A stretch of DNA of 64,000 bases from Deltaproteobacteria bacterium. Lineage in GTDB: Bacteria; Desulfobacterota; BSN033; WVXP01. The stretch covers positions 75,854-139,853 of the forward strand of contig JAFDHF010000002.1 of assembly GCA_019308905.1 (NCBI GenBank), written 5' to 3'. Below, piece by piece: positions 2,676 through 22,162 of the stretch. The notes below the pieces were generated by a model that worked only from the letters and a program-made list of their open reading frames with translations, had not been told where the DNA came from and did not search any database. The first letter of the stretch is position 1. Every line of letters begins with the position of its first letter. A program made the position numbers and the translations under genes.

Positions 2676-2710
2676 GGCCTGACATTCATGCACTCGGTCC
2701 AGAAAGGCGC

Positions 2711-3789: not shown

Positions 3790-3797
3790 GACCCGCG

Positions 3798-4679: not shown

Positions 4680-4694
4680 GGATACGAGGAGATT

Positions 4695-5597: not shown

Positions 5598-6067
5598 AAC
5601 CCATCGCTTTCCACTTGAACGGAGAGAAAGTCAGCATAGCCGTGGAACCCCATTGGACCCTCTTGCAGGTTCTAAGAGACGTCCTGCATCTGACCGGTAC
5701 CCATCGGGGATGTGAAACAGGGGACTGCGGCGCATGCACGGTGATCCTGGACGGCCTGGCCGTAAACTCCTGTCTGATTCTCGCAGTCGAGGTCGAAGGT
5801 AGGTCTGTAGTGACAATCGAAGGCCTTGCGAGAGAGGGGGAGTTGGACCCGGTTCAAAAGGCATTCGTGGACAGGGGGGCCATCCAGTGTGGATTCTGCA
5901 CCCCAGGGATGGTCATGGCTTCAAAGGCATTGCTCCAGAAAAACCCCTCGCCTACCAGGGAGGAAATCTCCTTCAGACTCGCGGGGAACATCTGTCGTTG
6001 CACGGGTTATACAAAAATCATCGAAGCCGTGATTGCGGCGTCCAAGACGGGGAATAGCCAGAAATGA
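5594..6067 (+). CDS. xanthine dehydrogenase family (2Fe-2S)-binding small subunit
   Basis: Plant-type ferredoxin cysteines (CETGDCGACTV) plus a second [2Fe-2S] motif (CGFCTPG, CRCTGY). Its ATG overlaps the upstream TGA. Confidence 0.85.
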   Translation: MKPIAFHLNGEKVSIAVEPHWTLLQVLRDVLHLTGTHRGCETGDCGACTVILDGLAVNSCLILAVEVEGRSVVTIEGLAREGELDPVQKAFVDRGAIQCGFCTPGMVMASKALLQKNPSPTREEISFRLAGNICRCTGYTKIIEAVIAASKTGNSQK

Positions 6068-8391: not shown

Positions 8392-8397
8392 GAGGCT

Positions 8398-9129
8398 GTG
8401 GAAGCACGTCTTTGTCGAAAATTGCAGGATACGCTCTGCCTTGAGAAAAAACCCGTGGTCGTTGCCCTCTCCGACCGCTCTCCCGAGGGGGTGGAAAGAT
8501 TCAAAGGCGAGCAAAAGGCCTGCGAGTTTATCGATACGGTCCGTGAGGAGGATCGCCCCTTTTACACGACCCTGGAAAACCAGTCTTGCAGAAACGGCAA
8601 CTACTATCTCGGGTTGGCTCCACCCTTCGAAGGGTTGATCACCGGTGAGCACAACGCCGGTGAAAACGGCCGCGGACTGGTCGGGTCCCCCGGAGCCTTC
8701 AGACGCCTCCTTTCGGGGTATGAGATCGTACCCACCGGTACTGTTTCCGTAATCACCTATGCTCCGTTGGATAGGGTTCCATTCTCGGACCGGTTCGGCG
8801 GGCAGGTGGTGGTCGTCAGCTGCCTGCCCAGACAGGCACTGCTGTTGTTGAGGGGTGCCAACTTCAGGACCGGCCACACCGTCCCCGGCTTGACGGGCCC
8901 ATCCACGTGCTCCAGCGTCATTGCGGCCCCCTTGCTCCGCGGTCAGGTCCACTACTCCCTGGGATGCTTTGGACTCAGGCTCTTCACCAAGATTCGAGAC
9001 GAAGAACTCGTTGTCGGCATCCCCCGGGAAGAGCTGGTGGAGGTGGTGGAAGGGTTGGAGCGGTTTCTCGAGGGGAGACCGGACTTGGGTGTCCAAGAAA
9101 AACAGAATAGGGAGACGGAACACGGCTGA
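8398..9129 (+). CDS. DUF169-family protein (uncharacterised archaeal-cluster-related protein, COG2043-like)
   Basis: About 240 aa, with a C-terminal SLGCFGLR motif resembling the conserved SLGCxGCR motif of DUF169. GTG start 6 nt after the molybdo-subunit stop. Confidence 0.5.
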   Translation: MEARLCRKLQDTLCLEKKPVVVALSDRSPEGVERFKGEQKACEFIDTVREEDRPFYTTLENQSCRNGNYYLGLAPPFEGLITGEHNAGENGRGLVGSPGAFRRLLSGYEIVPTGTVSVITYAPLDRVPFSDRFGGQVVVVSCLPRQALLLLRGANFRTGHTVPGLTGPSTCSSVIAAPLLRGQVHYSLGCFGLRLFTKIRDEELVVGIPREELVEVVEGLERFLEGRPDLGVQEKQNRETEHG

Positions 9130-9278
9130 TTGGAAAACGATGCGGCAGGACCGGTGAAATTCCATCACTTGTGGTTTCATGCACGGGATTCCGGCGTCTT
9201 TCCTGCGATTCGCCCCAGGTTGCATTTCTGGCTCTGTCCCTTGCTCCGACCGGGGGCGGGGATTTCTACTCCTAAGTC

Positions 9279-10259
9279 ATGGCCGAACTGCTAAGGATCA
9301 GCGAACTGAAAACCTATTTCTTCACGGACAAGGGTGTCATAAGGGCCGTGGACGGGGCGAGTCTCTCCCTCGACAAGGGAGATACCCTAGGTATTGTAGG
9401 TGAGTCCGGATGCGGGAAATCCGTGACTGCCCTGTCGGTCTTGAGACTGATTCCAAAGCCCGGGAGGCAGGTGGGGGGCACCATTGTTTTTGAAGGTGAG
9501 GATCTGGCGAAATTGGACGAATTGGAGATGCGCAGGATCAGGGGGAACAAGATATCCATGATCTTTCAGGAGCCCATGGCATCGCTCAATCCCGTCATCA
9601 AGGTGGGAGACCAAGTTGCCGAGGTGATCCAGCTCCACCAGCACCTATCCAAGAGGGACGCCCTCGAAAAAACCGTCCAGATGTTTCGCCTCGTGGGTAT
9701 TCCGGCACCTGAAGCCCGATTGAAGAACTATCCCCACCAGATGAGCGGCGGGATGCAGCAGAGGGTCATGATCGCAATGGCCCTTTCGTGCAATCCCCAC
9801 TTGATGATCGCCGACGAGCCCACGACGGCCTTGGATGTGACCATTCAGGCGCAGATTCTGGCCCTCATCAACACCCTCAAAGAACAGATCGGCATGTCTG
9901 TCATACTGATCACTCACGACTTGGGGATCGTGGCCGAAACGGCGCAGCACGTGGCGGTCATGTATGCGGGGAACGTGGTTGAGTACTGTGACGTCGTCTC
10001 CCTTTTCGAAGACCCATTGCACCCGTATACACGCGGTCTGCTGAACTCTATTCCCATGTCCACAAAGGGGCAGGGGCGCAAACAGAAACTCAGGGCGATT
10101 CCCGGTGTTGTACCGAACCTGCTGGAATTGCCGACCGGATGCAGGTTTCAGGATCGTTGCCTCTTGCGTTCAAGGCAGTGTCTTGAAAGCGAGCCGGAAT
10201 TGGTCGAACACAAACCAGGGCATCTTGTCAGATGTTGGAGGGCATCGGCCGATCGATGA
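9279..10259 (+). CDS. ABC transporter ATP-binding protein (DppD/OppD-like)
   Basis: Walker A (GESGCGKS), ABC signature (LSGGMQQR), Walker B, and an oligopeptide-type C-terminal extension. Confidence 0.9.
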
Positions 10260-11236
10260 AGGAACGGGAAGAAACCAGCCTGGTAGTCTTGAGGGACCTG
10301 AGAAAGCATTACCCGGTCCAGCACGGCCTTTTTTCGAGGACCCGGGCCGCGGTCAAGGCCGTCGACGGGGTCTCCCTTTCAATAATGAGAGGCGAAACAC
10401 TGGGGCTCGTCGGTGAAAGCGGATGCGGCAAATCCACCCTGGGGAGACTCATTCTGAGGTTTGAAGAACCTACAACAGGGAGTATCTACTTTGAAGGCCG
10501 GAACATCCTGGAGTTCGGCAGGAAGCAGATGAGGCATCTCAGGCGGGAAATGCAGATCATCTTTCAAGACCCCTTTTCATCCCTTGATCCGAGAAAGAAA
10601 GTCTCCAGTATACTGGCGGAGCCCTTCATTGTCCACAAGCTGGTCGCCAACAAAAGGGAGAGACAAGAGAAGGTTCTGAAACTGATGGAACTGGTGGGGC
10701 TGAGACCGGACCAGTCGAACCGCTATCCCCAGGAGTTCAGCGGCGGCCAGAGGCAGAGAATCGGAATAGCAAGGGCCCTGGCCCTGAATCCCAAACTGAT
10801 AATCGCCGATGAACCCATCTCCTCACTCGATCTTTCTATCCAAGCACAAGTCGTCAATCTGCTTGTGGATCTTCAGTTGAGGCTCGGGCTGACATATCTC
10901 TTTATCTCCCATGACCTGAGAGTGGTCCACCACGTAAGCGACAGGGTTGCGGTGATGTACCTCGGCAAGATCGTTGAATTGGCCGATGGAGAGACCCTGT
11001 ACAACGATCCTGTCCATCCATATTCGGAAGCACTCGTGGGATCCGCTCCTATTCCCAACCCGAAAGTGAAAAGGAAAAAGATCCTTCTTGAAGGAGACGT
11101 TCCGAGCCCGATCAACCCGCCTTCGGGATGCCGTTTCCACACGAGATGCCCCATACGAAAGGATCTCTGCTCAAGAGAGGACCCCCCCCTCGAACCGAGG
11201 GCAAACGGATCCATTGTGGCTTGCCATTTCAGATGA
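10232..11236 (+). CDS. ABC transporter ATP-binding protein (DppF/OppF-like)
   Basis: Walker A (GESGCGKST), signature (FSGGQRQR), and a cysteine-rich C-terminal region. Confidence 0.9.
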
Positions 11237-11306: not shown

Positions 11307-11319
11307 ATGGGTGTGACAA

Positions 11320-11480
11320 GGTAAGCGGATGCTTTGGGTGTAGGGAAGACGGTTGGAAGCCGTCGCGGACCCGCCGCTGTGAGTGGGGACGAAAGCCACA
11401 CAGAGTGCCACTGTTCCGCGTGAGCGGAGCGGGAAGGCGTGGTGAGTAGGACGATCCACGAGCCAGAAAACCTGCCCAAG
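11320..11480 (+). ncRNA. cobalamin (adenosylcobalamin) riboswitch aptamer
   Basis: Contains GGGAAG...GGTTGGAAGCCG...CCCGCCGCTGTGAG...GCCACTG and the B12 box AGCCAGAAAACCTGCC (11461-11476). It lies upstream of a TonB-dependent receptor gene. Confidence 0.75.
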
Positions 11481-11533
11481 GCGTTTCTCCATGAAGATTC
11501 CTCGAGGAGTGGGAAAATGGAGTGGGCCAACAG

Positions 11534-11576
11534 AGAAAGCCTGATCTTCGTCGGGGATCAGGCTTTCTTTTTCTGA
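11534..11576 (+). terminator. intrinsic terminator / riboswitch expression-platform attenuator (agaaagcctgatc ... gatcaggctttct followed by a TTTTCT tract)
   Basis: 13-bp inverted repeat followed by a T-tract, between the aptamer and the btuB-like start codon. Confidence 0.6.
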
Positions 11577-11726
11577 AATCGCCGCCAACTCTCTCCTGTT
11601 GTCAAACTCCTCTGCCCGAATCTTCGACCGGTCGTACCCAGCCGGATGGTTCATCCGCCCTCAGTGGGAGGAATCTCTCCGGCTCCGTGCAGGACAGTGT
11701 AAAACTCGAAAAAGGAGGAACAGAAC

Positions 11727-13838
11727 ATGAAGCCATCGCACAACCCCACACGTCCGCCGAAATCGACGGCCCGACCCGCCCACCCTTCACGGCACGGCAG
11801 GAGTCCGAAATCCCTTGCAAGGGGCCTCCTGGCACTCGCCTGTGCAGGGAGCCTCGCGCTGGCCCTGGATTCCACACCCTCTCCGGCCCAGGAGCCCGAT
11901 GAGAAGTCGGAGGTCCCCGTACTTCGCGAGGTTGTCGTAACGGCGACGAGACGGCAGGAAGAGATCCGGAAGGTCCCGGGCAACGTCACCGTCATCACCG
12001 AGAAGGACATAGAGAACTGGGAGACGATGACCGTGGCCGATCTGCTCCGGTCACAGGAAGGGATCGTGGTGAGAGATCTCCTGGGAAACGGAAAGGCCGC
12101 CCAGGTGGACCTCCGTGGATTCGGGGAGACAGCGCCCTTCAACACCCTCGTCCTGGTTGACGGGAGACGGGTCAACGAGATCGATCTGAGCGGTGTCGAT
12201 TGGACCCAGATCCCTCTGGATCAGGTGGAGCGCTTGGAGATCGTCCGGGGCACCGGAAGCGTCCTGTACGGGGACAACGCGGTTGGTGGAGTGATCAATA
12301 TCATCACCAAATCCCCTGAGGGAAAACCTTCGGCCATGATCGGCGGCGTCGGCGGAAGTTACGGGCGCAACGGGGCCAAAGCCTCTGTCGGCGGCGGGAC
12401 CGAGAAAATCGCGGCCTCTTTGACCGGCAGCTATGACGCAACAAGCGGATACAGGGACAACGAAGACTTCCGGAGAGGGGATGTCGGAGGAAAGGTCATC
12501 TACGATGTGACCGACGCTATCAGCCTCAACCTTACCGGATCCTATCACCGTGACGAATACGGTCTGCCGGGCCCACTCACGGAAGCAGAAGTCGAGGTGG
12601 ACAGGCGGTCCACCAGCAGGCCCCTCGACAATGCCAGAACCAGGGACGGGTACCTGAAGCTCGGCACGGATTGGGATCTGGGAGAGTACGGGCGAATCGT
12701 GGCGGACCTCTCGTACAGGGACCGGAACAACAGGGACGAGTTCGTCAGCTATTCGTCGGCTTCGGATCGGGATACCGCAACCTGGGCCTTCACCCCTCGA
12801 TACATCTGGGACGGAGAGATCACGGACCGCCCAAACACCCTCACCGCAGGAATCGATATCTATGCATCCGACCTGGACGCGGATTTTTTCTTTGGAACGC
12901 CCCTTGCTCCCTCGGGCTTTTCCAGGATCGAAAAGGATTCCTACGGGTTTTATGCGAGCGATGAATTTTCCCTGTCCGACAACCTCATCCTTTCCCTGGG
13001 TGCCCGGCACGAAGAGGTCAAGTACGATCTCGAACAGGAGGATTTCCTCTTCGGCCTCGTCCCCCTGGATGAAACAGTGAAAGACTCTGCAAATGCATAC
13101 ACCGCAGGACTCACCCTCCTCTACGGCAAAGGATCCTCCGCCTTTGTCCGAGTCAACCAGAGTTTTCGATTTCCCCTCACGGATGAACTCGTCGTCTTTG
13201 ATTTCGTGAATACGGGAAGCATTCGGATAAATTCCGACATCAAGCCTCAGATCGGCCATCACCTCGATATAGGGGTGAGACACTTCTTCACCCCCGACGT
13301 GCAAGCCAACGTCACCCTCTTCCACGCGGAGATCGAGGACGAGATCTTTTTCAATCCGCTGACCTACACCAACGAGAACTATCCGGAAACCCTGCACCAG
13401 GGCATCGAGGTCGGAGCGAGGGCGCAACTGCTCAAGAAGATTACGGTTTTCGGAAACTATACCTACGAGAAGGCGACCTTCGAGAAGGGTTCCTTCAGCG
13501 GCAACGACATACCCGCCGTACCGAGACACAAGGCAAACCTCGGACTCAAGATCAGTGATTTCGCCCCTGGACTTACCTTCGCTGCCGACTACAACTACGT
13601 GGGCTCGAGCTACCTCATCAGCGACGTCGCCAACGATTCGTCCAAGCTCGATGCTTATTTCACGGTCAATGCCAGGCTCACCTACAACTGGAAATGGCTC
13701 AGGGCCTATGCCGGCGTGAACAACGCGACAGACGAAAAGTACTCCGAATACGGCGTGGTCTCAGGTTTCTCTCAGACCTCTTACTTCTATCCCGCCCCTG
13801 GAAGGAACTGGGTGGCGGGCATCGAGGCCAGCTTTTAA
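11727..13838 (+). CDS. btuB: TonB-dependent outer-membrane receptor, BtuB-like (probable corrinoid transporter)
   Basis: Signal peptide, TonB box (EVVVTAT), plug domain, 22-strand barrel ending in a C-terminal aromatic residue (…GIEASF), and a cobalamin riboswitch upstream. Confidence 0.85.
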   Translation: MKPSHNPTRPPKSTARPAHPSRHGRSPKSLARGLLALACAGSLALALDSTPSPAQEPDEKSEVPVLREVVVTATRRQEEIRKVPGNVTVITEKDIENWETMTVADLLRSQEGIVVRDLLGNGKAAQVDLRGFGETAPFNTLVLVDGRRVNEIDLSGVDWTQIPLDQVERLEIVRGTGSVLYGDNAVGGVINIITKSPEGKPSAMIGGVGGSYGRNGAKASVGGGTEKIAASLTGSYDATSGYRDNEDFRRGDVGGKVIYDVTDAISLNLTGSYHRDEYGLPGPLTEAEVEVDRRSTSRPLDNARTRDGYLKLGTDWDLGEYGRIVADLSYRDRNNRDEFVSYSSASDRDTATWAFTPRYIWDGEITDRPNTLTAGIDIYASDLDADFFFGTPLAPSGFSRIEKDSYGFYASDEFSLSDNLILSLGARHEEVKYDLEQEDFLFGLVPLDETVKDSANAYTAGLTLLYGKGSSAFVRVNQSFRFPLTDELVVFDFVNTGSIRINSDIKPQIGHHLDIGVRHFFTPDVQANVTLFHAEIEDEIFFNPLTYTNENYPETLHQGIEVGARAQLLKKITVFGNYTYEKATFEKGSFSGNDIPAVPRHKANLGLKISDFAPGLTFAADYNYVGSSYLISDVANDSSKLDAYFTVNARLTYNWKWLRAYAGVNNATDEKYSEYGVVSGFSQTSYFYPAPGRNWVAGIEASF

Positions 13839-13866
13839 CACCTCCAGTCCATGAAAGGGAAAAAAC

Positions 13867-14190
13867 ATGCCTGACACAGATCGAGAGGGAATCGAGGAAG
13901 TATTCGTCATCAAGACCGAGGAGATCGATTTTTTCGGTGCCCTGGTCAGGGAGAAAGGAGGGAAGTCGGCTGTCAGCGGCAGGGTCTGGTTCCGTGGCGG
14001 CACCAGGTGGTACTTCGCTTCACGGGGGGGCGAGCGGGGCGATCTGAGAGAGAGGCTGGCAGGGCTGTCCGAGAACGTGGCATCCCTTTACGGCACGCAC
14101 GTCTTCTGCCTGAAGTTCAGCCGGACCATGGACTACCGGGGATTCATCCGTCGATTGCGAGAAGCCAAACAGGCAATGGCCCGCGCATAG
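13867..14190 (+). CDS. small hypothetical protein (107 aa) co-transcribed with the btuB-like gene
   Basis: Good ribosome-binding site 28 nt after the btuB-like stop. No recognisable family and no transmembrane segment. Confidence 0.4.
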   Translation: MPDTDREGIEEVFVIKTEEIDFFGALVREKGGKSAVSGRVWFRGGTRWYFASRGGERGDLRERLAGLSENVASLYGTHVFCLKFSRTMDYRGFIRRLREAKQAMARA

Positions 14191-14198
14191 AAAAGGAC

Positions 14199-14939
14199 TC
14201 ACGGGTTCAAGGCAACCACAAGGCCGAGGGAAAGGACCTCGGACAGCTCATCCGCTGCTCCCAGGACGTCGCCCGTGATGCCTCCCAGTCTGTGGTGGAA
14301 GTAGAGACGAATCCCACGGCTCAACAGTACGTTGGCTGCCAGAACCGCCACTCCCTTAAGGCCGAACAGCCCCACCGCGGCTGCCAGGGCGGAAAAGGTG
14401 GAAACCACGATCTCTCTTCTGCCCACTCCCAGGGCAAAGGGGCGGGCGAGTCCTCCTTCTGGCCGAGCATAGGAGGAACCATGGATTACCTGGACCATGG
14501 ACCACCGGCCGAGGGTGGCCATCAGGATCAAGGAGCGGTCCAGGATCGACCAGGGAGTCTCTGCAATAAGGGTGAGCTTGAGGAGGAGAATGCACACCAG
14601 GCCCACGGCTCCAAAGGCCCCTACCCGGCTGTCCCGCATGATCCTGAGTCTCTCTTGCCTGGTCCTGCCGCTTCTCAGACCGTCGATCGTGTCCGAGAGG
14701 CCGTCCAGATGCAGCGCCCCCGTGACCAGCACAAGAGCCACCACCAGGAGCACCGCCACGACCCTCTGGGGGAAGAAGAGAAGGAACAGGTGCCTGGAAG
14801 CGACCAAAATCAGCCCGATGCAAAAGCCCACAAGGGGATAGTAGGCCATGGACCGCGCCATCTCCAGGTCGGAGAAGCCGGTGCGTCCCGGAACGGGGAT
14901 AACGGTAAGGAATCGGACTGCAGCCACGAATTCTCTCAT
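14199..14939 (-). CDS. cobS: adenosylcobinamide-GDP ribazoletransferase (cobalamin 5'-phosphate synthase)
   Basis: The MREFVAAVRFLTVIPVP N-terminus is typical of CobS, and the protein is polytopic. The true start is the internal ATG at 14937-14939, not the longer ORF listed in the track. Confidence 0.8.
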   Translation of the reverse strand: MREFVAAVRFLTVIPVPGRTGFSDLEMARSMAYYPLVGFCIGLILVASRHLFLLFFPQRVVAVLLVVALVLVTGALHLDGLSDTIDGLRSGRTRQERLRIMRDSRVGAFGAVGLVCILLLKLTLIAETPWSILDRSLILMATLGRWSMVQVIHGSSYARPEGGLARPFALGVGRREIVVSTFSALAAAVGLFGLKGVAVLAANVLLSRGIRLYFHHRLGGITGDVLGAADELSEVLSLGLVVALNP

Positions 14940-15475
14940 CCCTTGTCCTTTACGACCAAGGGGATCCCTGCAACCATCAGGACAACCCTGTCGGCCGCTT
15001 GGGCGACTCTCTGATTGAGCCTCCCTGCCAAGTCCCTGAAAGAACGGGCCAGCGGATTCTCGGGTACGACTCCCCACCCCACCTCGTTGGAAACCAAAAC
15101 TACGGGGATCTTTGTGGTCTTCAAAGACCCGACCAAGCCCTCGAGCCTCTCTTCCATGCCGTCCTTGTCCTCGCGGTAGGTCATCAGCAGGTTGGAAACC
15201 CATAGGGTGAGGCAGTCGATCAGGACCACGCTGTACCTGTCCTGAGCCTCGGAGAGGACCCTTGCGATCTCCAGCGGCTCTTCCCTGGTCTCCCACAGAT
15301 CTCCACGCTCACGCCTGTGATTCTCGATTCTTTCTGCCATCTCACGGTCGAGGGCCTGGGCCGTGGCGACGAAGAGTCTCTTCCCCTGAAAGGCCTCTCC
15401 TATCTCCCGGGCATACAGGCTCTTGCCGCTCCGGGCGGCCCCCAGTACGAGAATGACCCGAGGGGTGCCTCCCAT
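14936..15475 (-). CDS. cobU: bifunctional adenosylcobinamide kinase / adenosylcobinamide-phosphate guanylyltransferase
   Basis: P-loop (GAARSGKS) and CobU/CobP length. Its stop overlaps the cobS start (ATGA). A GGAGG ribosome-binding site precedes the ATG at 15475. Confidence 0.85.
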   Translation of the reverse strand: MGGTPRVILVLGAARSGKSLYAREIGEAFQGKRLFVATAQALDREMAERIENHRRERGDLWETREEPLEIARVLSEAQDRYSVVLIDCLTLWVSNLLMTYREDKDGMEERLEGLVGSLKTTKIPVVLVSNEVGWGVVPENPLARSFRDLAGRLNQRVAQAADRVVLMVAGIPLVVKDKG

Positions 15476-15513
15476 GGGGTCGCCTCCGGCTCTCCTGTCG
15501 TCTCCCATCTCCG

Positions 15514-16218
15514 CTACCTCTTCCACCCACCGAAGCGGGCCGCTCTCCCGCGGGAATCCCGGCCTCCCGGTGATTTATCTTCGCCCAGACGCGACCGAAT
15601 CCCGCTGGTAACCGCCTGTCTTACCGCTTGACCGATCAACGAGCCTATGGGAGTATGTTTCCCCGCATATCTCTCACCCCTTCTCCTCCATGGAGAAGCC
15701 ACTGCGATGCAGTCCGTACCCGTTCCCGTGGCGGGTCTTCCACTGACTCGACTCTTGAGGAGTGAATCCATGAAAGCGGCGGTTCGCGCCTCGGCCGCGA
15801 GGGAGACGACCTCAACCATGGCCCCCCTGGAGAGAGGCACGGAGACATGACACAAGAGATTGACGGTTCCGACTACCCCTCCTGTGCCGGGGGGATCCCC
15901 CACGGCAAGAGCGTTCGAGAGGCCAACCGTGGCGATACAGCCCACCGTCAGTGACCCGTCAGACCTTCTTACGTCCTGATATCCCTTCAGGTCGGTGCCG
16001 GTCATCATGCCCACGCCACAGGAAAGACGCGCCTCCTTGAGGCGCCTCCTCAGCAGACGAACCGGATCCACGTCCGGTCCCAGTTCCCCTTCTTTCACCT
16101 GCAGCCAGGCCAAGCTCCTGCTCTTTCTAAACCCGCCGCCCACGACGGCCCAGCTCAAGATCCGCATCTCCTCTCCGAACCGGACGACCAGGAACCGACC
16201 TCTTTTCTCGACAACCAT
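15514..16218 (-). CDS. cbiZ: probable adenosylcobinamide amidohydrolase (CbiZ family)
   Basis: About 230 aa, lying between cobD and cobU in a cobinamide salvage operon. The assignment rests on size, context and weak motif similarity. Confidence 0.5.
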   Translation of the reverse strand: MVVEKRGRFLVVRFGEEMRILSWAVVGGGFRKSRSLAWLQVKEGELGPDVDPVRLLRRRLKEARLSCGVGMMTGTDLKGYQDVRRSDGSLTVGCIATVGLSNALAVGDPPGTGGVVGTVNLLCHVSVPLSRGAMVEVVSLAAEARTAAFMDSLLKSRVSGRPATGTGTDCIAVASPWRRRGERYAGKHTPIGSLIGQAVRQAVTSGIRSRLGEDKSPGGRDSRGRAARFGGWKR

Positions 16219-16302
16219 AGAGCCGACCCCCTCTCGGCTTGACGATCCTGATCGGTCTGCCCCCGGGAACCGGAACAGGCCGGCAAGACCCTGGAGGATC
16301 CG

Positions 16303-17259
16303 TCAAGACAGAGCCGAAACCAACATAAGTGTCACCGCCACGGCCGCTACCATTGCCAGCGAAACACCGAACATGATTCCGATGCTTTCCCCGGCCCTCT
16401 GAACAGAGACGGGCTCAAAGGCCTTCCCGATGTAGGGTTTCTGAAGGACCTCCCCGAAATACACGGACGGCCCCCCGAGTCGAATCCCGAGTGCCCCTGC
16501 CACGGCTGCCTCGGGAAAGCCGGCGTTGGGACTCTCATGGTTCCTTCCTTCTCTCCAGGCGGTTTCCAGTGCCTTCTTCCAGTCTCTCCCGAGAACAAAG
16601 GAGACCCACACTATCAGAAGGGCCGTGATCCTGGAAGGCAGGAAGTTGGCCGCGTCGTCCAGCCTGGCCGAGGCCCATCCGAAATCGAGGTACCTGGAGT
16701 TGCGATACCCCACCATCGAATCGAGGGTGTTCACCGCCTTGTAGGCCAGGGCCAGAGCCGGCCCGCCTATTCCGAGGTAGAAAAGGGGAGCCACGATACC
16801 GTCGGAGGTATTCTCTGCAACCGTCTCCACAACCGCACGACAGATCTCCGAATCATCGAGATGCCGCGTGTCCCGGCTCACCAGCCCTGCCAGGCGCTTC
16901 CTGGCTCCCGTCGTGTCACCGGCCCCCAGGCGCTCGACCACACTCGAAGCCTCTCTGCCCAGGCTTCGCGTGGCGAGAGTAGTGTAAGCCAAAAAGATGG
17001 AGACCGCCACTCCCAATCTCCAGTCATAGCACCGTGCGAGCCTCAATGAACCTTCTGCAAGAACCCAGGTTCCACCCACGACCAGGCCTACCAGCACACA
17101 GCCCGCCCATTTCTTGCCTCTCTCGGTCAAACCCGGGCGCAAGAGCAGTCTCTCCGACAAAGCGATCCCCTTCCCCATCATCACGACCGGGTGGGGCAAC
17201 CACCTGGGATCACCGAAGATCAGATCGGCGAGGTAGGCGATAATGATCTGGCCGGTCAT
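16303..17259 (-). CDS. cobD: adenosylcobinamide-phosphate synthase (CobD/CbiB)
   Basis: Integral membrane CobD/CbiB signature (LIFGDPRWLPHPV...). ATGA overlap with the cobT stop. Confidence 0.85.
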   Translation of the reverse strand: MTGQIIIAYLADLIFGDPRWLPHPVVMMGKGIALSERLLLRPGLTERGKKWAGCVLVGLVVGGTWVLAEGSLRLARCYDWRLGVAVSIFLAYTTLATRSLGREASSVVERLGAGDTTGARKRLAGLVSRDTRHLDDSEICRAVVETVAENTSDGIVAPLFYLGIGGPALALAYKAVNTLDSMVGYRNSRYLDFGWASARLDDAANFLPSRITALLIVWVSFVLGRDWKKALETAWREGRNHESPNAGFPEAAVAGALGIRLGGPSVYFGEVLQKPYIGKAFEPVSVQRAGESIGIMFGVSLAMVAAVAVTLMLVSALS

Positions 17260-18323
17260 CCCTTCTTCCCGCTCACGCCCGCCTCCTCGAAGGTGGCCAT
17301 CTCGTTGTAAAGCCTCAGGGCCGCATCCACCAATTGGATGCCGAGAGCAGCCCCGGTTCCCTCGCCCAGCCGCATGGAGAGATCCAGCACCGGGCGGATG
17401 CCTATCCGGTCGAGCATGACCCTGTGGCCGATCTCGGCCGAACTGTGAGAAGCGAAAATGTAAGCCTTGATCCTGGGGTTCATCTCAGTGGCGATAAGAA
17501 TCCCGGCCGTGGAGATCAGCCCGTCGGCGACGACCGGAATGCGATTGGCGGAAGCCCCGATGGCGACACCCGTGATACCCGCGATCTCGAATCCCCCCAG
17601 TTTGGCCAAGACATCCAGAGGATCCCGAGGATCAGGCCTGTTCACACTGAGAGCCCTCTCCACGACCTCGATCTTCTTCTCCAATCCTCGGTCGTCGACA
17701 CCCGTACCCCTGCCCGTCACCTCTCTCGCGGGAAGACCGGCTACGGCGGCTATGATCGCACTGCTCGGCGTCGTATTGCCGATTCCCATATCGCCCACGC
17801 CGATGATGTCCACCCCTTCCCTTTTCACCTCTTCGACGATCTCGATTCCCGCCAGTACCGCCTCGAGGGCCTGCCTGGCTGTCATGGCCGGCCCCTTGGT
17901 GATGTTCGCCGTCCCCCTTGCCACCCTTCTTATGACCAGACCCTCGACAGGCTCGAAATCATGGTCTACACCCATATCAACCACGTAGAGACGGGCCCCG
18001 ATGAATCGGGCCAGAACACTTATGGCCGCCCCCTTGTGGAGAAAATTACGAACCATCTGGGAGGTCACCTCCTTGGGATAGAGGCTCACCTCCTCCTCGG
18101 CCACCCCATGATCCCCCGCGAGGATGAGGATGGTCTTGCGGTTGATCGCAGGTCGAAGCTCCTGCTTGACGGCCACGTAGTGCCTCACGAATTCCTCCAG
18201 GCGGCCAAGGCTCCCCCGGGGTTTTGTGAGACTGTCCAGGCGCTTCTGTGCTTCTTCCAGGAATTCATCCTTCAGGGGCTCGACCCGTGCCAGATACTCT
18301 TCTATTTTTTCCCGCAGTTCCAC
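17256..18323 (-). CDS. cobT: nicotinate-nucleotide--dimethylbenzimidazole phosphoribosyltransferase
   Basis: The CobT fold shows clear homology across its length (e.g. GDMGIGNTT). GTG start with an AAGGAG ribosome-binding site. Confidence 0.85.
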   Translation of the reverse strand: MELREKIEEYLARVEPLKDEFLEEAQKRLDSLTKPRGSLGRLEEFVRHYVAVKQELRPAINRKTILILAGDHGVAEEEVSLYPKEVTSQMVRNFLHKGAAISVLARFIGARLYVVDMGVDHDFEPVEGLVIRRVARGTANITKGPAMTARQALEAVLAGIEIVEEVKREGVDIIGVGDMGIGNTTPSSAIIAAVAGLPAREVTGRGTGVDDRGLEKKIEVVERALSVNRPDPRDPLDVLAKLGGFEIAGITGVAIGASANRIPVVADGLISTAGILIATEMNPRIKAYIFASHSSAEIGHRVMLDRIGIRPVLDLSMRLGEGTGAALGIQLVDAALRLYNEMATFEEAGVSGKKG

Positions 18324-18376
18324 TTCCTGCTCCTTTCCCCCGAAGAACTCCCAGGGAAGCGTCGCCTAACAGAGTG

Positions 18377-18428
18377 GACAAAAGATAAGGGCTTCGACGG
18401 ACTATCAAGCATCCCCGTCGGAGCCCTT
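18377..18428 (-). terminator. putative attenuator hairpin in the expression platform of the second cobalamin riboswitch
   Basis: On the minus-strand RNA: GGGCTCCGACGG...CCGTCGAAGCCC (one mismatch) followed by a TTATCTTTTGT tract, lying between the aptamer and the cobT start. Confidence 0.4.
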
Positions 18429-18439
18429 TGCCATCGAGT

Positions 18440-18622
18440 CCCGATCGACATCCCTCTGCAGCAGGTCTTCTGGCTCTCGGATCTTCCTTTGGGCTGCGGC
18501 CTTCCCGTCAGGGTGAACCCTGGCAGTGACGCGAGACGGGCGATCGCCCGGCAGCCTTCAGTCCCCGATCACAGCGGCGGGACCGCCGCGGATTTCCACC
18601 GCGTTCCGGGATGCTGCAAGGG
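18440..18622 (-). ncRNA. cobalamin riboswitch aptamer (second copy, minus strand) leading the cobT-cobD-cbiZ-cobU-cobS operon
   Basis: The minus-strand RNA carries GGTGGAAATCCGCGG...CCCGCCGCTGTGA...GTCACTGCC and the B12 box AGCCAGAAGACCTGC. The core resembles riboswitch 1 (shared CCCGCCGCTGTGA...GGGGAC). Confidence 0.7.
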
Positions 18623-18630
18623 AAATTCAT

Positions 18631-18658
18631 CTTATGATGCTTTCCCGCTCCTTGTCAA
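18631..18658 (-). promoter_or_regulatory. candidate sigma70 promoter for the riboswitch-cob operon (TTGACA, 16-17 nt spacer, CATAAG/ATAAGA)
   Basis: Hexamers read on the minus strand. They overlap the 3' end of the convergent aldehyde dehydrogenase gene. Confidence 0.35.
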
Positions 18659-18659
18659 G

Positions 18660-20153
18660 TCAAAGCACCTTCTCTATGTCGATGGCGCAGGTCTTGAGAT
18701 GGGTCACGTCATCCAGGGTGTATCGGCCGCCGAGTCGCCCGTATCCGCTCTTTGTACCGCCCCCGCCGCCAAAAGGCTCATGGGCCTCCCAGTAGTCCGT
18801 GGTGTCGTTGAATACGATATTGCCCGTCCGGAGCCGCGAAGCGTAGAAGAAACACCTCTTGATCGAGGAGGTAAACACCGACATCTGCAACCCGTACCCG
18901 CTCTCATTGGCTATTTGCACGGCTTCCTCATCGTTCTGGAAGGTGATCACAGGTGCCACGGGGCCGAAGGTCTCCTCCTTGTTCAGAAGGCTGTCCCGAG
19001 AAACCCCGTCGATAACAGTGGCGGGAAAATAGAGATCAGTGCGCCATCCGCTTTGCACCCTGCCGCCGAGCAGAATCCTTGCCCCTTTTGCCACCGCGTC
19101 CTCCAGGTGCGTCTTGGTCTTTGCAACGGTAGGCTCGTTGTTGAGAGGCCCCATACAGGTCTCCTCCTCCATGGGATCCCCGAGTCTCCAGGTCTCTGCC
19201 TCCTTCACGAGCAGTCCAAGGAACTCATCGTGAACCTTCCTGTCAACCAGGATCCTCTCCGTGGCACAGCAGACCTGACCTGCATTGAAGAAGCACCCGA
19301 AGGCCGCAGCCCTTGCCGCCTCTTCTATGTTGGCGTCGGAACAGACGATCTGCGGACCGTTGCCTCCCAGTTCCATAAGGGTTCTCTTGATACCCGCCCG
19401 TGAACAGATCGAAGTTCCGGTGAGGGTTTCCCCTGTGAACCCGATCATGTCCACCCCGGGATGGCCGACCAGATAGTCTCCCACCTTTCCTCCGGGGCCT
19501 GTGATGAGATTGAAGACACCCTTCGGATATCCTAAATCGTCCAAAGCATCTTGGATGCAGCGGCCCACGAGTATCATGGAAAGAGGAGTATAGGAGGCGG
19601 GCTTCATTATGATAGTATTCCCCGCCGCAAGAGAGGGTCCGAGATACTCGGAAGGTATCACCGTGGGAAAGTTCCAGGGCGTGATCACCGCCATCGTACC
19701 GACAGCCTCACGAAAGGTGAAGACACGCTTGTTCGGGTCCTCCATGGGAATGACGGGCGTTTCCAGGCGAACGATATCCTCTGCGGCAATCTGGAAATTC
19801 CTGGCCGTCTCCCGGACCTCAGGAAGGGCTTCCCTGAAATAGGACTTCCCCTGCTCCATGGTGAGCACCCTGCCTATAATCTCCGCCCTGGCAGAAATCA
19901 GCTCCGAAATCCTTCGGACCAGAGCCGAACGCTCGAAAACCGGTGTGAGCCTGAACGGTTCCCAGGCCTTTCGGGCGGCTTCGACGGCTCTGTCCACATC
20001 ACTCGGGTCGCACAGGGGCACCCTGCCGAGCACCTCACCGGTTACCGGGCTCTTCACCTCAAAGGTCTTCCCGGATCCGGCACCGCGCCAGACCCCGGCT
20101 ACGAGATTGGTGTTCTCCTTCAGTTCTTCGGGCAGTTCGAATTTCTCAGCCAT
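18660..20153 (-). CDS. NAD(P)-dependent aldehyde dehydrogenase family protein
   Basis: ALDH catalytic motifs (ELGGNGP and a catalytic Cys in FNAGQVCCA). The start was refined to the ATG at 20151-20153, which has a GGAGG ribosome-binding site. Confidence 0.85.
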   Translation of the reverse strand: MAEKFELPEELKENTNLVAGVWRGAGSGKTFEVKSPVTGEVLGRVPLCDPSDVDRAVEAARKAWEPFRLTPVFERSALVRRISELISARAEIIGRVLTMEQGKSYFREALPEVRETARNFQIAAEDIVRLETPVIPMEDPNKRVFTFREAVGTMAVITPWNFPTVIPSEYLGPSLAAGNTIIMKPASYTPLSMILVGRCIQDALDDLGYPKGVFNLITGPGGKVGDYLVGHPGVDMIGFTGETLTGTSICSRAGIKRTLMELGGNGPQIVCSDANIEEAARAAAFGCFFNAGQVCCATERILVDRKVHDEFLGLLVKEAETWRLGDPMEEETCMGPLNNEPTVAKTKTHLEDAVAKGARILLGGRVQSGWRTDLYFPATVIDGVSRDSLLNKEETFGPVAPVITFQNDEEAVQIANESGYGLQMSVFTSSIKRCFFYASRLRTGNIVFNDTTDYWEAHEPFGGGGGTKSGYGRLGGRYTLDDVTHLKTCAIDIEKVL

Positions 20154-20164
20154 TTCATGCCTCC

Positions 20165-22162
20165 TTACCCGCATCCAAGATCTTCCATGAGGTCCTGGAG
20201 CATTTCCGCGAGTTCCCCCGCTGCTTCTCCCGTAACAAAGTCCGGGGGCCTGGGCTCGCCGTCGGTCTTCCTGTAAGCGTCTCGAAGCTGGCCGCACGCC
20301 TCTTCGATATCGCCCTCCTCTATCAGGTCGCCTGCCGACTCGATCATGTTCCTCAGGGCGCGGAGCCTCTTTTCAGCCGAATTACCCGGGCCACTTCCGA
20401 TAAGCGTACCATTTTCGACCGACTCGTCGAAGAATTCAAGGATCTCGGCTACCTGTTCTCCAGGCGGTATCTCCGTCTCTAACCCGGTTCCGCTCAAGGT
20501 TACCACCACTGTCGGCTCGCCAGAATCATCGCTCTTGATCTCAAGGTGAGCAGACGAAGTCCCGAGGCTTGACGGCGTGTACATGACCTCCACGTAAAGG
20601 GTCTCACCGGGAGGCACTTCGGTCGGAGCACCCGGACCCGAGGCAATCGAGAAATCGCTGCTGCTGCCATCCTGAAAGGCGATACTGTCCACGGACAGCC
20701 CTATGCTTCCCAGATTCGAGATGCCGACCAGAACCGTAGCCGAGGAGCCCAGTTCTACATTACCAAAATCATAGCCGAGAGGTGAAACCTCGATGTGGGG
20801 GCCACAAACGACAGAAACCTCAGCAGAGGAGCCCCCTACTGCGATGAGGGGACTGAGAGGGGCGGCAGGTGAGCTGGCCCCTGGGGCAGTGGTCACTTGA
20901 TCCACACCTGGTGTATCGAAAACCCGGGCCTCGCTCGTGCCCACAGCCTGGCAATAGGGGATCTCCCCATAGCTATCGAGTTTCATTACCAGGAGATCGC
21001 CGGCATACCCGGTACCGCCGCCCACAATGTATCCCCTGTCTGCGGTCTGTTCGACAGAACAACCCCTGCCGGAGCCGTACCCCACGTAGGCCTTCTGCCA
21101 GGATATGTTTCCGACTTTATCCAGCTTCAATATCAACCAGTGATAATCCCCGAAGGACCAAGTCTTACCTGCCACGATGTATCCGCCATCTTCGGTCTGG
21201 CAGATAGAGTGCGCCCTGTCGTCACCCTCTCCTCCACAGCTCTTCTGCCACATGATCCCCCCTGTTGGGTCGAGTTTCAGGACCCAAAAATCCGATTCCG
21301 GAGGGCCGCCTGCGCCAAAGGTGGTGGTCCCGCCGGCTACGATATACCCGCCATCCGTGGTCTGCCGTATAGACCTGGCATACTCGTAATTGTCCCCTCC
21401 GTAGCTCTTCTGCCACGCCACCGTTCCATCGGGGTTGAGCTTTATGACCCAGACCCCCTCGGCCCCCGGGCCAAAAGAGTTGGTCTCGCCGGCCACGACG
21501 TACCCGTCGGATGCTCCGGTACTGTCGAATGTCTCCCGAACACAAGAGGCATAGTCGTCCCTAGCCCCCCCAAAGGTCCTCTGCCAGACAATCTGCCCAT
21601 CGGAGTCGAGCTTCAACACCCATGAGTCTGATCTTTCTGCTCCAAAAGAGAAAGTCAGCCCGCCCACCATGTATCCGCCGTCTGTCGTCTGTTGGATGGA
21701 AAATGCTTCGTCCGTATTCTCCCCTCCATAGGTTTTCTGCCAGACAACGTTTCCATCCAGATCGAGTCTCAGCACCCAGAGGTCGACCCCCGTCCCCTCC
21801 TCCGGCGACGATCCTCTTTGACCCGCGACAACGTATCCATTGGGGCTCCCACTCTCGTCAAAGGTCTCTTCCACGGAGTAGGCCATGTCATAATAGATGT
21901 CCCCGTATGTCTTCTGCCAGACGATCTCTCCCTCCTGGTCGAGTTTCAAGACCCAGACATCGGATGATCCGCTTGCCCCAAAAGAGAGTGTCTGCCCAGC
22001 CACGATGTATCCACCATCGGTCGTCTGGTGGATCGAATAGGCCTGATCATGTTGACTCCCACCATAGGTCTTGGCCCACTGAGCATAGGAGGGCGAAGGT
22101 ACGTTGAACCCTACGGCAAGACAAACCAACACCAAAAGAACCGGAATCGACTTTTTTCCCAT
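20165..22162 (-). CDS. secreted repeat protein: seven roughly 52-aa W-x-K-T-Y-G-G ... DGGY-V-AG ... W-V-L-K-L-D blades (predicted 7-bladed beta-propeller), a choice-of-anchor-D / ASH-like Ig domain and an acidic helical C-terminal tail
   Basis: Signal peptide (MGKKSIPVLLVLVCLAVGF...AQ). Seven clear tandem protein repeats. Ig-like domain (FGNVELGSSATVLVGISNLGSIGLSVDSIAF...HLEIKSDDSGEP). The start was refined to the ATG at 22160-22162, which has a GGAGG ribosome-binding site. Confidence 0.7.
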   Translation of the reverse strand: MGKKSIPVLLVLVCLAVGFNVPSPSYAQWAKTYGGSQHDQAYSIHQTTDGGYIVAGQTLSFGASGSSDVWVLKLDQEGEIVWQKTYGDIYYDMAYSVEETFDESGSPNGYVVAGQRGSSPEEGTGVDLWVLRLDLDGNVVWQKTYGGENTDEAFSIQQTTDGGYMVGGLTFSFGAERSDSWVLKLDSDGQIVWQRTFGGARDDYASCVRETFDSTGASDGYVVAGETNSFGPGAEGVWVIKLNPDGTVAWQKSYGGDNYEYARSIRQTTDGGYIVAGGTTTFGAGGPPESDFWVLKLDPTGGIMWQKSCGGEGDDRAHSICQTEDGGYIVAGKTWSFGDYHWLILKLDKVGNISWQKAYVGYGSGRGCSVEQTADRGYIVGGGTGYAGDLLVMKLDSYGEIPYCQAVGTSEARVFDTPGVDQVTTAPGASSPAAPLSPLIAVGGSSAEVSVVCGPHIEVSPLGYDFGNVELGSSATVLVGISNLGSIGLSVDSIAFQDGSSSDFSIASGPGAPTEVPPGETLYVEVMYTPSSLGTSSAHLEIKSDDSGEPTVVVTLSGTGLETEIPPGEQVAEILEFFDESVENGTLIGSGPGNSAEKRLRALRNMIESAGDLIEEGDIEEACGQLRDAYRKTDGEPRPPDFVTGEAAGELAEMLQDLMEDLGCG
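20860..22010 (-). repeat. seven divergent tandem repeats of about 156 bp inside the propeller gene (recurring ...TCTTCTGCCAGAC... blocks on the plus strand)
   Basis: Periodic DNA and protein repeat seen directly in the sequence. Confidence 0.5.

What the first reader, a model, noticed from the sequence alone, without database searches (positions are those of the whole stretch)
14199..18658. Second cobalamin riboswitch (opposite strand) leading a cobT-cobD-cbiZ-cobU-cobS corrinoid salvage/remodelling operon, 35 kb from corrinoid-dependent methyltransferases
The minus-strand leader at 18440-18622 carries a B12 box (AGCCAGAAGACCTGC). It shares the core CCCGCCGCTGTGA...GGGGAC with riboswitch 1. 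A terminator-like hairpin with a T-tract follows at 18377-18428. The operon encodes only the late nucleotide-loop assembly steps (CobT, CobS, CobU, CobD) plus a CbiZ-like amidohydrolase. That is the gene set for salvaging and remodelling imported corrinoids, not for de novo synthesis. It matches the adjacent BtuB-like importer and the cobamide demand of the MttB, MtbB and corrinoid-protein module in the same window.
Basis: partly seen in the sequence, partly recalled or inferred. Interest (0 to 1): 0.5.

Follow-up and report, generated by a model that had tools for sequence, protein, structure and literature searches.

The report
B12 riboswitch controlling corrinoid salvage operon
A vitamin-B12-sensing RNA switch sits in front of five genes that rebuild the lower half of imported B12-type cofactors; the feature is real and well supported, but it is an ordinary example of a well-known arrangement.

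Summary
A cobalamin riboswitch (Rfam RF00174, 67.2 bits, E = 2e-14) lies at 18443-18633 on the minus strand. It has its own sigma-70-like promoter and a conserved hairpin with a U-tract. All five pass curated family thresholds, and the 15514-16218 ORF matches the whole CbiZ profile (174.9 bits, cut-off 27).

The window matches an NCBI MAG labelled "Deltaproteobacteria bacterium" (GCA_019309355.1) at 99.87% identity. Relatives keep the same module, facing a riboswitch-controlled TonB-dependent receptor. The slot between cobT and cobU varies among them (nothing, cobC, cbiB-cobC, cbiB-cbiZ, cbiB-cbiZ-cobC).

The best reading is feedback-repressed nucleotide-loop assembly plus CbiZ-dependent salvage or remodelling of imported corrinoids. 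This kind of system is already described in Rhodobacter, Dehalococcoides and Dehalobacter.

Whether the organism also makes corrinoids de novo could not be decided. One relative with 76% CobT identity carries these genes inside a de novo cbi cluster.

Two side observations are more unusual. A relative has lost exactly the aptamer but kept the promoter and hairpin. A small uncharacterised protein next to the operon (13867-14190) is riboswitch-controlled in three different gene contexts.

The parts
18629..18658 (-). Sigma-70-like promoter TTGACA-18 nt-TAAGAT. It overlaps the stop codon of the upstream aldehyde dehydrogenase gene.
   Evidence: One search gives 10 of 12 matches. The TTGACA and TA..AT hexamers are conserved in the L008 and L002/L003 leaders.
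18443..18633 (-). Cobalamin riboswitch aptamer (RF00174). It includes the B12 box at 18475-18461 and loop L5 (UCCCG) at 18582-18578.
   Evidence: 67.2 bits, E = 2e-14, full-length model match; 13 of 43 pairs compensatory across 7 related riboswitches; homologous aptamer upstream of cobT in L008 (66.2 bits).
18433..18449 (-). Small hairpin GUCGA-UCGGGAC-UCGAU, a P13/L13 candidate. Its loop CGGGA (18443-18439) is complementary to L5. The stretch 18448-18436 can instead pair with the 5' arm of the terminator and so act as an antiterminator.
   Evidence: Folding and duplex calculations. The L5-L13 duplex is -11.6 kcal/mol. The antiterminator is about -17 to -18 kcal/mol when the 3' arm is absent or blocked. 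This is an inferred model, not a demonstrated one.
18378..18428 (-). Terminator-like hairpin (arms 18428-18415 and 18400-18387, one C/A mismatch, loop about 12 nt) followed by the U-rich tract UUAUCUUUUGU.
   Evidence: Present in both the MFE and centroid structures. -24 kcal/mol when folded alone. Both arms are conserved in L008 and L002/L003.
17256..18323 (-). cobT, nicotinate-nucleotide--dimethylbenzimidazole phosphoribosyltransferase (lower-ligand activation). GTG start, with AGGAG 6 nt upstream.
   Evidence: PF02277 461.6 bits; TIGR03160 454.1, above its cut-off of 319.3. Homologue N-termini align from residue 3. The public gene call is 6 codons shorter.
16303..17259 (-). cbiB (CobD in P. 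denitrificans naming), adenosylcobinamide-phosphate synthase. It overlaps the cobT stop codon.
   Evidence: PF03186 344.2 bits; TIGR00380 240.7, above its cut-off of 165.9.
15514..16218 (-). cbiZ, adenosylcobinamide/cobamide amidohydrolase. It is a stand-alone enzyme, not the archaeal CbiS fusion.
   Evidence: PF01955 174.9 bits, profile 1-191 of 191. CbiS equivalog reaches only 108.6 bits against a cut-off of 250, covering only the first 195 of 335 profile positions.
14936..15475 (-). cobU, bifunctional adenosylcobinamide kinase / cobinamide-phosphate guanylyltransferase.
   Evidence: PF02283 209.9 bits; NF004469 203.6, above its cut-off of 161. The 179-aa ATG start follows the public gene call on L007.
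14199..14939 (-). cobS, adenosylcobinamide-GDP ribazoletransferase (cobalamin-5'-phosphate synthase). Its ATG overlaps the cobU stop codon (ATGA).
   Evidence: PF02654 183.8 bits; TIGR00317 141, above its cut-off of 110.
11319..14190 (+). Convergent partner module: riboswitch 1 (11319-11493), a TonB-dependent receptor (11727-13838) and an uncharacterised 107-aa protein (13867-14190).
   Evidence: The same head-to-tail partner is found in L003, L008, L011 and L014.

Best explanation
This is a cobalamin-repressed operon for the late steps of cobamide assembly, with a CbiZ entry point for imported corrinoids.

Transcription starts at a sigma-70-type promoter that overlaps the end of the upstream aldehyde dehydrogenase gene. 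The first roughly 190 nt of the transcript fold into a cobalamin aptamer.

When a corrinoid is bound, loop L5 (UCCCG) is proposed to pair with the CGGGA loop of a small hairpin just downstream. That holds the antiterminator strand in place, so the GGGCUCCGACGG/CCGUCGAAGCCC hairpin with its U-tract forms and stops transcription before cobT. When corrinoid is scarce, the same strand pairs with the 5' arm of the terminator and the operon is read through.

The proposed roles of the products are as follows. CbiZ cuts cobinamide or an unsuitable complete cobamide back to adenosylcobyric acid. CbiB re-attaches the aminopropanol-phosphate linker. CobU makes AdoCbi-GDP and can also phosphorylate cobinamide directly. 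CobT activates the preferred lower base. CobS joins the two halves. The convergent riboswitch-controlled TonB-dependent receptor would supply the corrinoids, and the Pyl-type methylamine methyltransferases with their corrinoid protein 36 kb away are consumers.

Shown here: the aptamer, the promoter-like and terminator-like elements, the gene families, and conservation of the module. Inferred: the switching mechanism, the enzyme substrates, and the physiological link to the importer and the methyltransferases.
For: - Aptamer: RF00174 at 67.2 bits over the full model, with the B12 box present.
- Structure support: 13 of 43 pairs compensatory among 7 related riboswitches.
- Conservation of the leader: a homologous aptamer, promoter and hairpin sit upstream of cobT in L008/L009, at 81% nucleotide identity.
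- Promoter: 10 of 12 matches.
- Terminator: present in MFE and centroid structures, -24 kcal/mol alone.
- Switching model: L5/L13 complementarity and an alternative antiterminator pairing.
- Gene families: all five genes exceed curated thresholds.
- Operon structure: overlapping or closely spaced genes, namely the cobT/cbiB overlap, the cobU/cobS ATGA overlap, and gaps of 38 and 84 nt.
- Recurrence: the same gene order with a convergent receptor occurs in L014 and, with cobC added, in L002-L004.
- cbiZ-cbiB adjacency also occurs in the distant loci L001 and L006. This fits the CbiZ product being the CbiB substrate.
- Literature: CbiZ-initiated remodelling in R. sphaeroides and D. mccartyi, completed by the salvage genes (PMC7733943); riboswitch-linked cbiZ salvage operons induced by corrinoid starvation in Dehalobacter (PMC4285132).
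Against: - No experiment supports any step.
- The antiterminator and kissing-loop model comes from energy calculations on one sequence. In L008 the L5-L13 duplex is weaker (-4.7 kcal/mol).
- The whole-leader fold is not more stable than shuffled sequence (z = -0.75).
- L002/L003 keep the hairpin without any aptamer, so the hairpin is not exclusively a riboswitch part.
- cobC, the aminopropanol-phosphate supply (Thr-P decarboxylase, PduX), an adenosyltransferase and btuFCD are not in the window.
- The receptor does not reach BtuB equivalog thresholds.
- CbiZ substrate range cannot be read from sequence, and no solved homologue was found.
Confidence: 0.8

Rival explanations
1. The operon is simply the terminal (nucleotide-loop) section of a complete de novo anaerobic cobamide pathway encoded elsewhere in the genome. 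On this view the organism is a producer and cbiZ is an accessory. The locus is therefore not a sign of dependence on imported corrinoids.
For: CobT, CbiB, CobU and CobS are needed by producers as well. Relative L010 (CobT 76% identical) carries cobT-cbiB-cobC-cobU-cobS between cbiP and cysG/cobD-cbiA-cbiC-cbiD, with a riboswitch inside the cluster. Corrinoid producers with cbiZ are known, for example Acetobacterium woodii (PMC4285132).
Against: No de novo cbi homologue was found in the 64 kb window. The locus has cbiZ and faces a riboswitch-controlled outer-membrane receptor. Syntenic relatives L008 and L011 pair the operon with btuF or btuFCD-tonB-exbBD rather than with cbi genes. The search for CbiD in the source MAG did not reach that MAG, so the test is inconclusive.
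Confidence: 0.35
2. CbiZ here serves only cobinamide salvage, as in archaea. It does not remodel complete cobamides, so the operon does not change lower ligands.
For: CbiZ was first defined as adenosylcobinamide amidohydrolase (Pfam name). Remodelling activity has been shown for few enzymes, and cbiZ homologues elsewhere remain untested (PMC7733943).
Against: CobU is encoded two genes away and already gives the bacterial kinase route for cobinamide. A second cobinamide route would therefore be redundant. In R. sphaeroides, which likewise has both, CbiZ acts on pseudocobalamin and not on cobalamin (PMC7733943).
Confidence: 0.3
3. The riboswitch acts mainly on translation or mRNA stability. On this view the conserved hairpin is an independent attenuator or stabiliser and not the riboswitch's terminator.
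For: L002/L003 retain the promoter and hairpin with no aptamer. A second predicted stem (CUUCCC...GGGGGAA) lies just upstream of the AGGAG ribosome-binding site. The U-tract is interrupted (UUAUCUUUUGU).
Against: The hairpin with its U-rich tail starts 14 nt after the aptamer, and an alternative pairing links it to the L13-like loop. The ribosome-binding site itself is not paired in the centroid structure. In L002 an upstream antiterminator-like pairing is also predicted, which would make the aptamer-less leader constitutively on.
Confidence: 0.2

Closest known systems
Riboswitch-controlled corrinoid salvage operons with cbiZ in organohalide respirers (Dehalococcoides mccartyi; Dehalobacter restrictus operons 2 and 4; PMC4285132)
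   Same: Cobalamin riboswitch control, cbiZ grouped with corrinoid transport or nucleotide-loop genes, and induction when corrinoid is scarce.
   Different: Those loci pair cbiZ with btuFCD-type ABC transporters and often carry several cbiZ copies. Here a single cbiZ sits between cbiB and cobU, and the transporter is a convergent, separately riboswitched outer-membrane receptor. The host is a Deltaproteobacteria-labelled MAG with Pyl-type methylamine methyltransferases.
CbiZ-dependent cobamide remodelling system of Rhodobacter sphaeroides (Gray and Escalante-Semerena 2009, as summarised in PMC7733943)
   Same: CbiZ occurs in a bacterium that also has CobU. The remodelling logic is CbiZ, then CbiB, then CobU, CobT and CobS.
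   Different: Activity and substrate selectivity are unknown here. cobC and the aminopropanol-phosphate genes are not in the locus. Sequence relatedness to the Rhodobacter enzyme was not measured.
Sporomusa ovata cobT cobalamin riboswitch (PMC9600662)
   Same: A cobalamin riboswitch lies directly upstream of cobT, in a genome that has other cobalamin riboswitches on transport genes.
   Different: The S. ovata element was shown experimentally to be semiselective (it discriminates against cobinamide). Selectivity of the present element is untested. Its aptamer differs from the neighbouring importer riboswitch (67 against 99 bits, CCGGAAC in place of AGGGAAG, a larger P6 insert).
Salmonella enterica cobUST nucleotide-loop genes (established knowledge)
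   Same: The CobU, CobS and CobT enzyme families and their chemistry.
   Different: In Salmonella these genes are the tail of the large cob operon, whose riboswitch sits at cbiA. Here they form a separate unit with its own riboswitch, together with cbiB and cbiZ.

Membership tests
Cobalamin riboswitch (Rfam RF00174) | Covariance-model score at or above the curated gathering score, over the full model | tested here: met
   67.2 bits against 31.5, model positions 1-189 of 189, E = 2e-14.
Cobalamin riboswitch (Rfam RF00174) | B12 box and conserved core (GCCACUG, GGGAAGG, AGCCAGAAGACCUGC) | tested here: met
   GUCACUG, GGGAAGG and AGCCAGAAGACCUGC are present. The J3/4 motif reads CCGGAAC instead of AGGGAAG.
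Cobalamin riboswitch (Rfam RF00174) | Helices supported by compensatory changes in relatives | tested here: met
   13 of 43 predicted pairs have changes on both sides that keep the pair, in 7 riboswitches from this clade. This includes window against L008.
Cobalamin riboswitch (Rfam RF00174) | Corrinoid binding and ligand-dependent control of the downstream genes | not testable with these tools
   Only a structural model of terminator, antiterminator and L5-L13 pairing is available.
CbiZ (Pfam PF01955, adenosylcobinamide amidohydrolase) | Profile match above the gathering score, covering the whole domain | tested here: met
   174.9 bits against 27; residues 13-203 match profile positions 1-191 of 191.
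CbiZ (Pfam PF01955, adenosylcobinamide amidohydrolase) | Amidohydrolase activity on AdoCbi or on complete cobamides | not testable with these tools
   No solved homologue was found by sequence. No catalytic-residue test was available.
CbiS (NCBIfam NF038002, archaeal CbiZ plus alpha-ribazole phosphatase fusion) | Equivalog score of at least 250, with both halves present | tested here: not met
   108.6 bits, with only profile positions 2-195 of 335 matched. This is a stand-alone CbiZ.
CobT (TIGR03160), CbiB (TIGR00380), CobU (NF004469), CobS (TIGR00317) | Equivalog scores above the curated cut-offs | tested here: met
   454.1 against 319.3; 240.7 against 165.9; 203.6 against 161; 141 against 110.
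BtuB vitamin B12 outer-membrane receptor (TIGR01779 / NF007926) | Equivalog score above the cut-off | tested here: not met
   147.9 against 599.7 and 107 against 836. Plug and TonB-dependent barrel domains are present. The B12 link rests on riboswitch 1 only.
Complete CbiZ-type remodelling or salvage pathway | CbiZ, CbiB, CobU, CobT, CobS plus CobC, an aminopropanol-phosphate supply (Thr-P decarboxylase), an adenosyltransferase and an inner-membrane transporter | tested here: inconclusive
   The first five are in the operon. The others are absent from the 64 kb window and the rest of the genome could not be searched. Relatives carry cobC in the operon.

The most novel reading that the evidence does not exclude
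The locus may be a compact import-and-remodel module whose two riboswitches are tuned differently. The canonical riboswitch 1 on the receptor would respond to any corrinoid. The divergent riboswitch 2 on cobT-cbiB-cbiZ-cobU-cobS would respond only to the finished, preferred cobamide, so that unsuitable cobamides or cobinamide do not shut off their own remodelling. The neighbouring 107-aa protein (13867-14190) may be a new corrinoid-handling or regulatory factor. It has no known family, it is riboswitch-controlled in three different gene contexts, and its predicted fold is only weakly similar to a WGR domain.
Probability: 0.25. Interest if true: 0.5.

Novelty: new member of a known kind. Interest (0 to 1): 0.2.

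Why it matters
The feature adds one more well-annotated example of riboswitch-controlled cobamide salvage and remodelling. This one is in an uncultured Deltaproteobacteria-labelled lineage that also encodes pyrrolysine-type methylamine methyltransferases, so it helps predict that organism's cofactor ecology: import, trim and rebuild.

Beyond that, the comparison set gives two small leads. One is a natural presence/absence pair for a riboswitch aptamer with an otherwise conserved leader. The other is an uncharacterised small protein family that belongs to the cobalamin regulon. Neither changes current understanding of B12 regulation.

Tried and rejected
- **Exact look-ups.** Look-ups of the window's CobT and CbiZ found no record. 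The CobT look-up used the longer GTG-start ORF, and the public CobT record (P0001) is six codons shorter. The CbiZ miss is unexplained, because a 234-aa CbiZ is called on L007. The source was identified later through P0001 and L007.
- **Genome and metagenome scans with CbiZ.** These returned only relatives at or below 65% identity and not the source.
- **De novo pathway test.** I searched with CbiD from relative L010 and looked up two candidates. They belong to other assemblies (GCA_016220005.1 and a JGI sample). Hits were flat at 58-64% identity across many phyla, so nothing could be assigned to the source MAG. The result is inconclusive.
- **Whole-leader stability.** The z-score of -0.75 is uninformative for a 351-nt GC-rich segment.
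- **Lower-ligand prediction from CobT.** Rejected. The best solved relatives are ArsA (1.3e-85), Thermus CobT (1.1e-81) and Salmonella CobT (5e-75), which are too close to discriminate. There is also only one cobT gene, not an arsAB pair.
- **Shared core of riboswitch 1 and riboswitch 2 as a sign of duplication.** Rejected. The shared string is invariant across all seven riboswitches aligned.
- **tRNA-Pyl.** No tRNA gene was found in the window.

Full report
**1. Observation**

A scan of the whole window against Rfam gives four matches above gathering score:
- a cobalamin riboswitch at 11319-11493 (+), 99.3 bits;
- a second cobalamin riboswitch at 18443-18633 (-), 67.2 bits, E = 2e-14, model positions 1-189 of 189;
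- two pyrrolysine insertion elements, at 55724 (mttB type) and 57320 (mtbB type).

The B12 box AGCCAGAAGACCTGC lies at 18475-18461. The string CCCGCCGCUGUGA...GGGGAC is in both riboswitches. It is also invariant in all seven related riboswitches I aligned, so it is family core and not a special link between the two.

Its arms are AAGGGCUCCGACGG (18428-18415) and CCGUCGAAGCCCUU (18400-18387), with one C/A mismatch, followed by UUAUCUUUUGU. It appears in both the MFE and centroid folds of the leader and folds at -24 kcal/mol alone. The simple terminator scan misses it only because its loop is longer than 8 nt.

**2. Genes**

All five minus-strand ORFs downstream match the expected families above curated thresholds.

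| Gene | Coordinates | Pfam | NCBIfam (score / cut-off) |
|---|---|---|---|
| cobT | 17256-18323 | PF02277, 461.6 bits | TIGR03160, 454.1 / 319.3 |
| cbiB | 16303-17259 | PF03186, 344.2 bits | TIGR00380, 240.7 / 165.9 |
| cbiZ | 15514-16218 | PF01955, 174.9 bits (GA 27), profile 1-191 of 191 | CbiS NF038002, 108.6 / 250 (not met) |
| cobU | 14936-15475 | PF02283, 209.9 bits | NF004469, 203.6 / 161 |
| cobS | 14199-14939 | PF02654, 183.8 bits | TIGR00317, 141 / 110 |

- The cbiZ product matches only the first half of the archaeal CbiS fusion model, so it is a stand-alone CbiZ.
- The long ORF 14199-15296 is an artefact of ORF listing. The Pfam match starts at residue 126 of that ORF. An ATG at 14939 overlaps the cobU stop codon as ATGA.
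- cobT overlaps cbiB by 4 nt. The other gaps are 84 nt and 38 nt. The arrangement is that of one transcription unit.
- The GTG at 18323 has AGGAG 6 nt upstream, and homologue N-termini align from residue 3. The public gene call is 6 codons shorter.

**3. Promoter and upstream context**

The aldehyde dehydrogenase gene (PF00171) ends at 18660. A TTGACA-18 nt-TAAGAT site at 18658-18629 (10 of 12 matches) overlaps its stop codon. The -35 and -10 hexamers are conserved in the leaders of relatives. The operon therefore has its own promoter directly in front of the aptamer.

**4. Source and relatives**

Contig JAFDGJ010000186.1 of NCBI MAG GCA_019309355.1 ("Deltaproteobacteria bacterium") is 99.87% identical to window 14257-20384 and carries the same genes. 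Related loci show a conserved module with a variable middle.

| Locus | Arrangement |
|---|---|
| L014 | receptor-orf107, convergent with cobS-cobU-cbiZ-cbiB-cobT; identical to the window |
| L002/L003/L004 (65-73% aa identity) | the same, with a cobC-like gene (TIGR03162, 148.5 bits) between cbiZ and cobU |
| L008/L009 (CobT 76%) | riboswitch-cobT-cobU-cobS, convergent with a riboswitch-controlled receptor; a divergent btuF-like gene |
| L011 | cobT-cobC-cobU-cobS, convergent with orf112-receptor, riboswitch, btuFCD, tonB-exbBD |
| L010 (CobT 76%) | cbiP-cobT-cbiB-cobC-cobU-cobS-riboswitch-cysG/cobD-cbiA-cbiC-cbiD: a de novo cluster without cbiZ |

- In the distant loci L001 and L006, cbiZ again sits next to cbiB.
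- The window lacks cobC, which its nearest relatives have.
- tblastn with cobC, cbiP, cbiA, cbiC, cbiD, btuF, btuC, tonB and exbBD from relatives finds none of these in the 64 kb window. Only btuD gave hits, and those are generic ABC-ATPase matches.

**5. Is the riboswitch real and functional-looking?**

The L008 element upstream of cobT scores 66.2 bits. It is 81% identical in nucleotides to the window leader, against about 72% for the adjacent cobT coding sequence. Across seven riboswitches of this clade, 13 of 43 consensus pairs show compensatory changes. One example is CGCGG/CCGCG in the window against CACGG/CCGUG in L008.

Riboswitch 2 differs from the receptor-type riboswitches in three ways: a lower score, CCGGAAC in place of AGGGAAG, and a 13-nt larger P6 insert.

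**6. Mechanism (inferred)**

Folding calculations suggest a standard OFF switch.
- Just after the aptamer lies a small hairpin, GUCGA-UCGGGAC-UCGAU (18449-18433).
- Its loop CGGGA is complementary to L5 UCCCG (18582-18578). The duplex energy is -11.6 kcal/mol. This is the L5-L13 kissing loop known from solved cobalamin riboswitches and discussed in PMC9600662.
- The same stretch (18448-18436) can instead pair with the 5' arm of the terminator. That pairing is -17 to -18 kcal/mol when the 3' arm is not yet made or is blocked.
- Ligand binding would therefore hold the antiterminator strand in the kissing loop and let the terminator form.

This is a model only. In L008 the L5-L13 duplex is weaker (-4.7 kcal/mol).

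**7. Function of the gene set**

CbiZ hydrolyses the amide next to the aminopropanol linker. In R. sphaeroides it acts on pseudocobalamin and not on cobalamin, and rebuilding then uses the salvage enzymes (PMC7733943). cbiZ copies lie in corrinoid salvage and transport operons in Dehalobacter, where their products are strongly induced by corrinoid starvation, and cbiZ is implicated in remodelling in D. mccartyi (PMC4285132).

CobU already provides the bacterial route for cobinamide, so a CbiZ in the same operon fits remodelling of complete cobamides. Cobinamide salvage alone cannot be excluded.

The lower base cannot be predicted. CobT is about equally similar to ArsA, Thermus CobT and Salmonella CobT.

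**8. What remains open**

Salvage-only versus producer could not be settled. My attempt to find CbiD in the source MAG reached only other assemblies. Relative L010 shows that this lineage can carry the same late genes within a de novo cluster. The receptor is a TonB-dependent receptor but falls below the BtuB equivalog thresholds.

**9. Comparison with known systems and novelty**

Every element is of a described kind: a riboswitch on cobT (the S. ovata cobT riboswitch, PMC9600662), cbiZ with salvage genes, and a riboswitch-controlled outer-membrane receptor. The proteins are already named in the public MAG record. I rate it a new member of a known kind, of low interest.

**10. Side observations**

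(a) L002/L003 lack the aptamer precisely. Their promoter runs into ...AAUUUUGAUCG..., which aligns with the window sequence on either side of the aptamer. The hairpin and U-tract are kept, and no Rfam hit appears even at E up to 1.

(b) The 107-aa ORF at 13867-14190 is a conserved protein with no Pfam hit at E up to 10 and no NCBIfam hit at E up to 0.01.
- It is found in only 84 representative clusters out of 1.84 billion.
- Its predicted fold is confident: pLDDT 85.3, topology four strands, helix, strand, helix.
- It is under cobalamin-riboswitch control in three architectures: riboswitch-receptor-orf (window, L011, L014); receptor-riboswitch-orf (L003, 107 bits); and riboswitch-terminator-orf with no receptor (L017, L019, L020).

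Noticed in passing
[not shown]
   Followed up: partly
L002 6040-6258 and L003 about 590-810, compared with window 18378-18660 (-): Relatives with the same operon keep the promoter (TTGACA-17 nt-TACCAT) and the GGGCUCCGACGG/CCGUCGAAGCC hairpin with its U-tract, but lack the roughly 190-nt aptamer precisely. There is no RF00174 match even at E up to 1. This is a natural presence/absence pair for a riboswitch aptamer on an otherwise homologous leader.
   Followed up: partly
window 15475-15514; L004 1071-1733; L010 12324-13013; L011 11146-11814: The slot between cobT and cobU varies among relatives: nothing (L008), cobC (L011), cbiB-cobC (L010), cbiB-cbiZ (window, L014), cbiB-cbiZ-cobC (L002-L004). 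The window has no cobC-like gene anywhere in its 64 kb.
   Followed up: yes
window 54743-59953 (+): MttB and MtbB genes with in-frame UAG codons, each followed by a PYLIS element (RF02510 81.7 bits, RF02509 82.6 bits). They are followed by a B12-binding corrinoid protein and a second, uninterrupted MttB-family gene. The host is a Deltaproteobacteria-labelled MAG that has a TonB-dependent receptor. No tRNA gene, and so no tRNA-Pyl, is in the window.
   Followed up: partly
window 18305-18323 (-): The public gene call for cobT (349 aa) starts 6 codons downstream of the GTG at 18323, at an ATA codon. The GTG has AGGAG 6 nt upstream, and homologues align from residue 3, so the longer form seems more likely.
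   Followed up: partly
window 1152-11236: An Opp/Dpp-type ABC transporter is split by other genes. The binding protein and two permeases lie at 1152-4679, and the two ATPases at 9279-11236. Between them are a three-subunit xanthine-dehydrogenase-family enzyme (FAD, 2Fe-2S and molybdopterin subunits, 4695-8391) and an unassigned 287-aa minus-strand ORF (8362-9225). All of this lies directly upstream of riboswitch 1.
   Followed up: no
L010 14357-14545 (+): In the relative that has a de novo cbi cluster, the cobalamin riboswitch (110.5 bits) sits inside the cluster. It lies between cobS and the cysG/aminotransferase fusion gene, and not in front of cobT.
   Followed up: no
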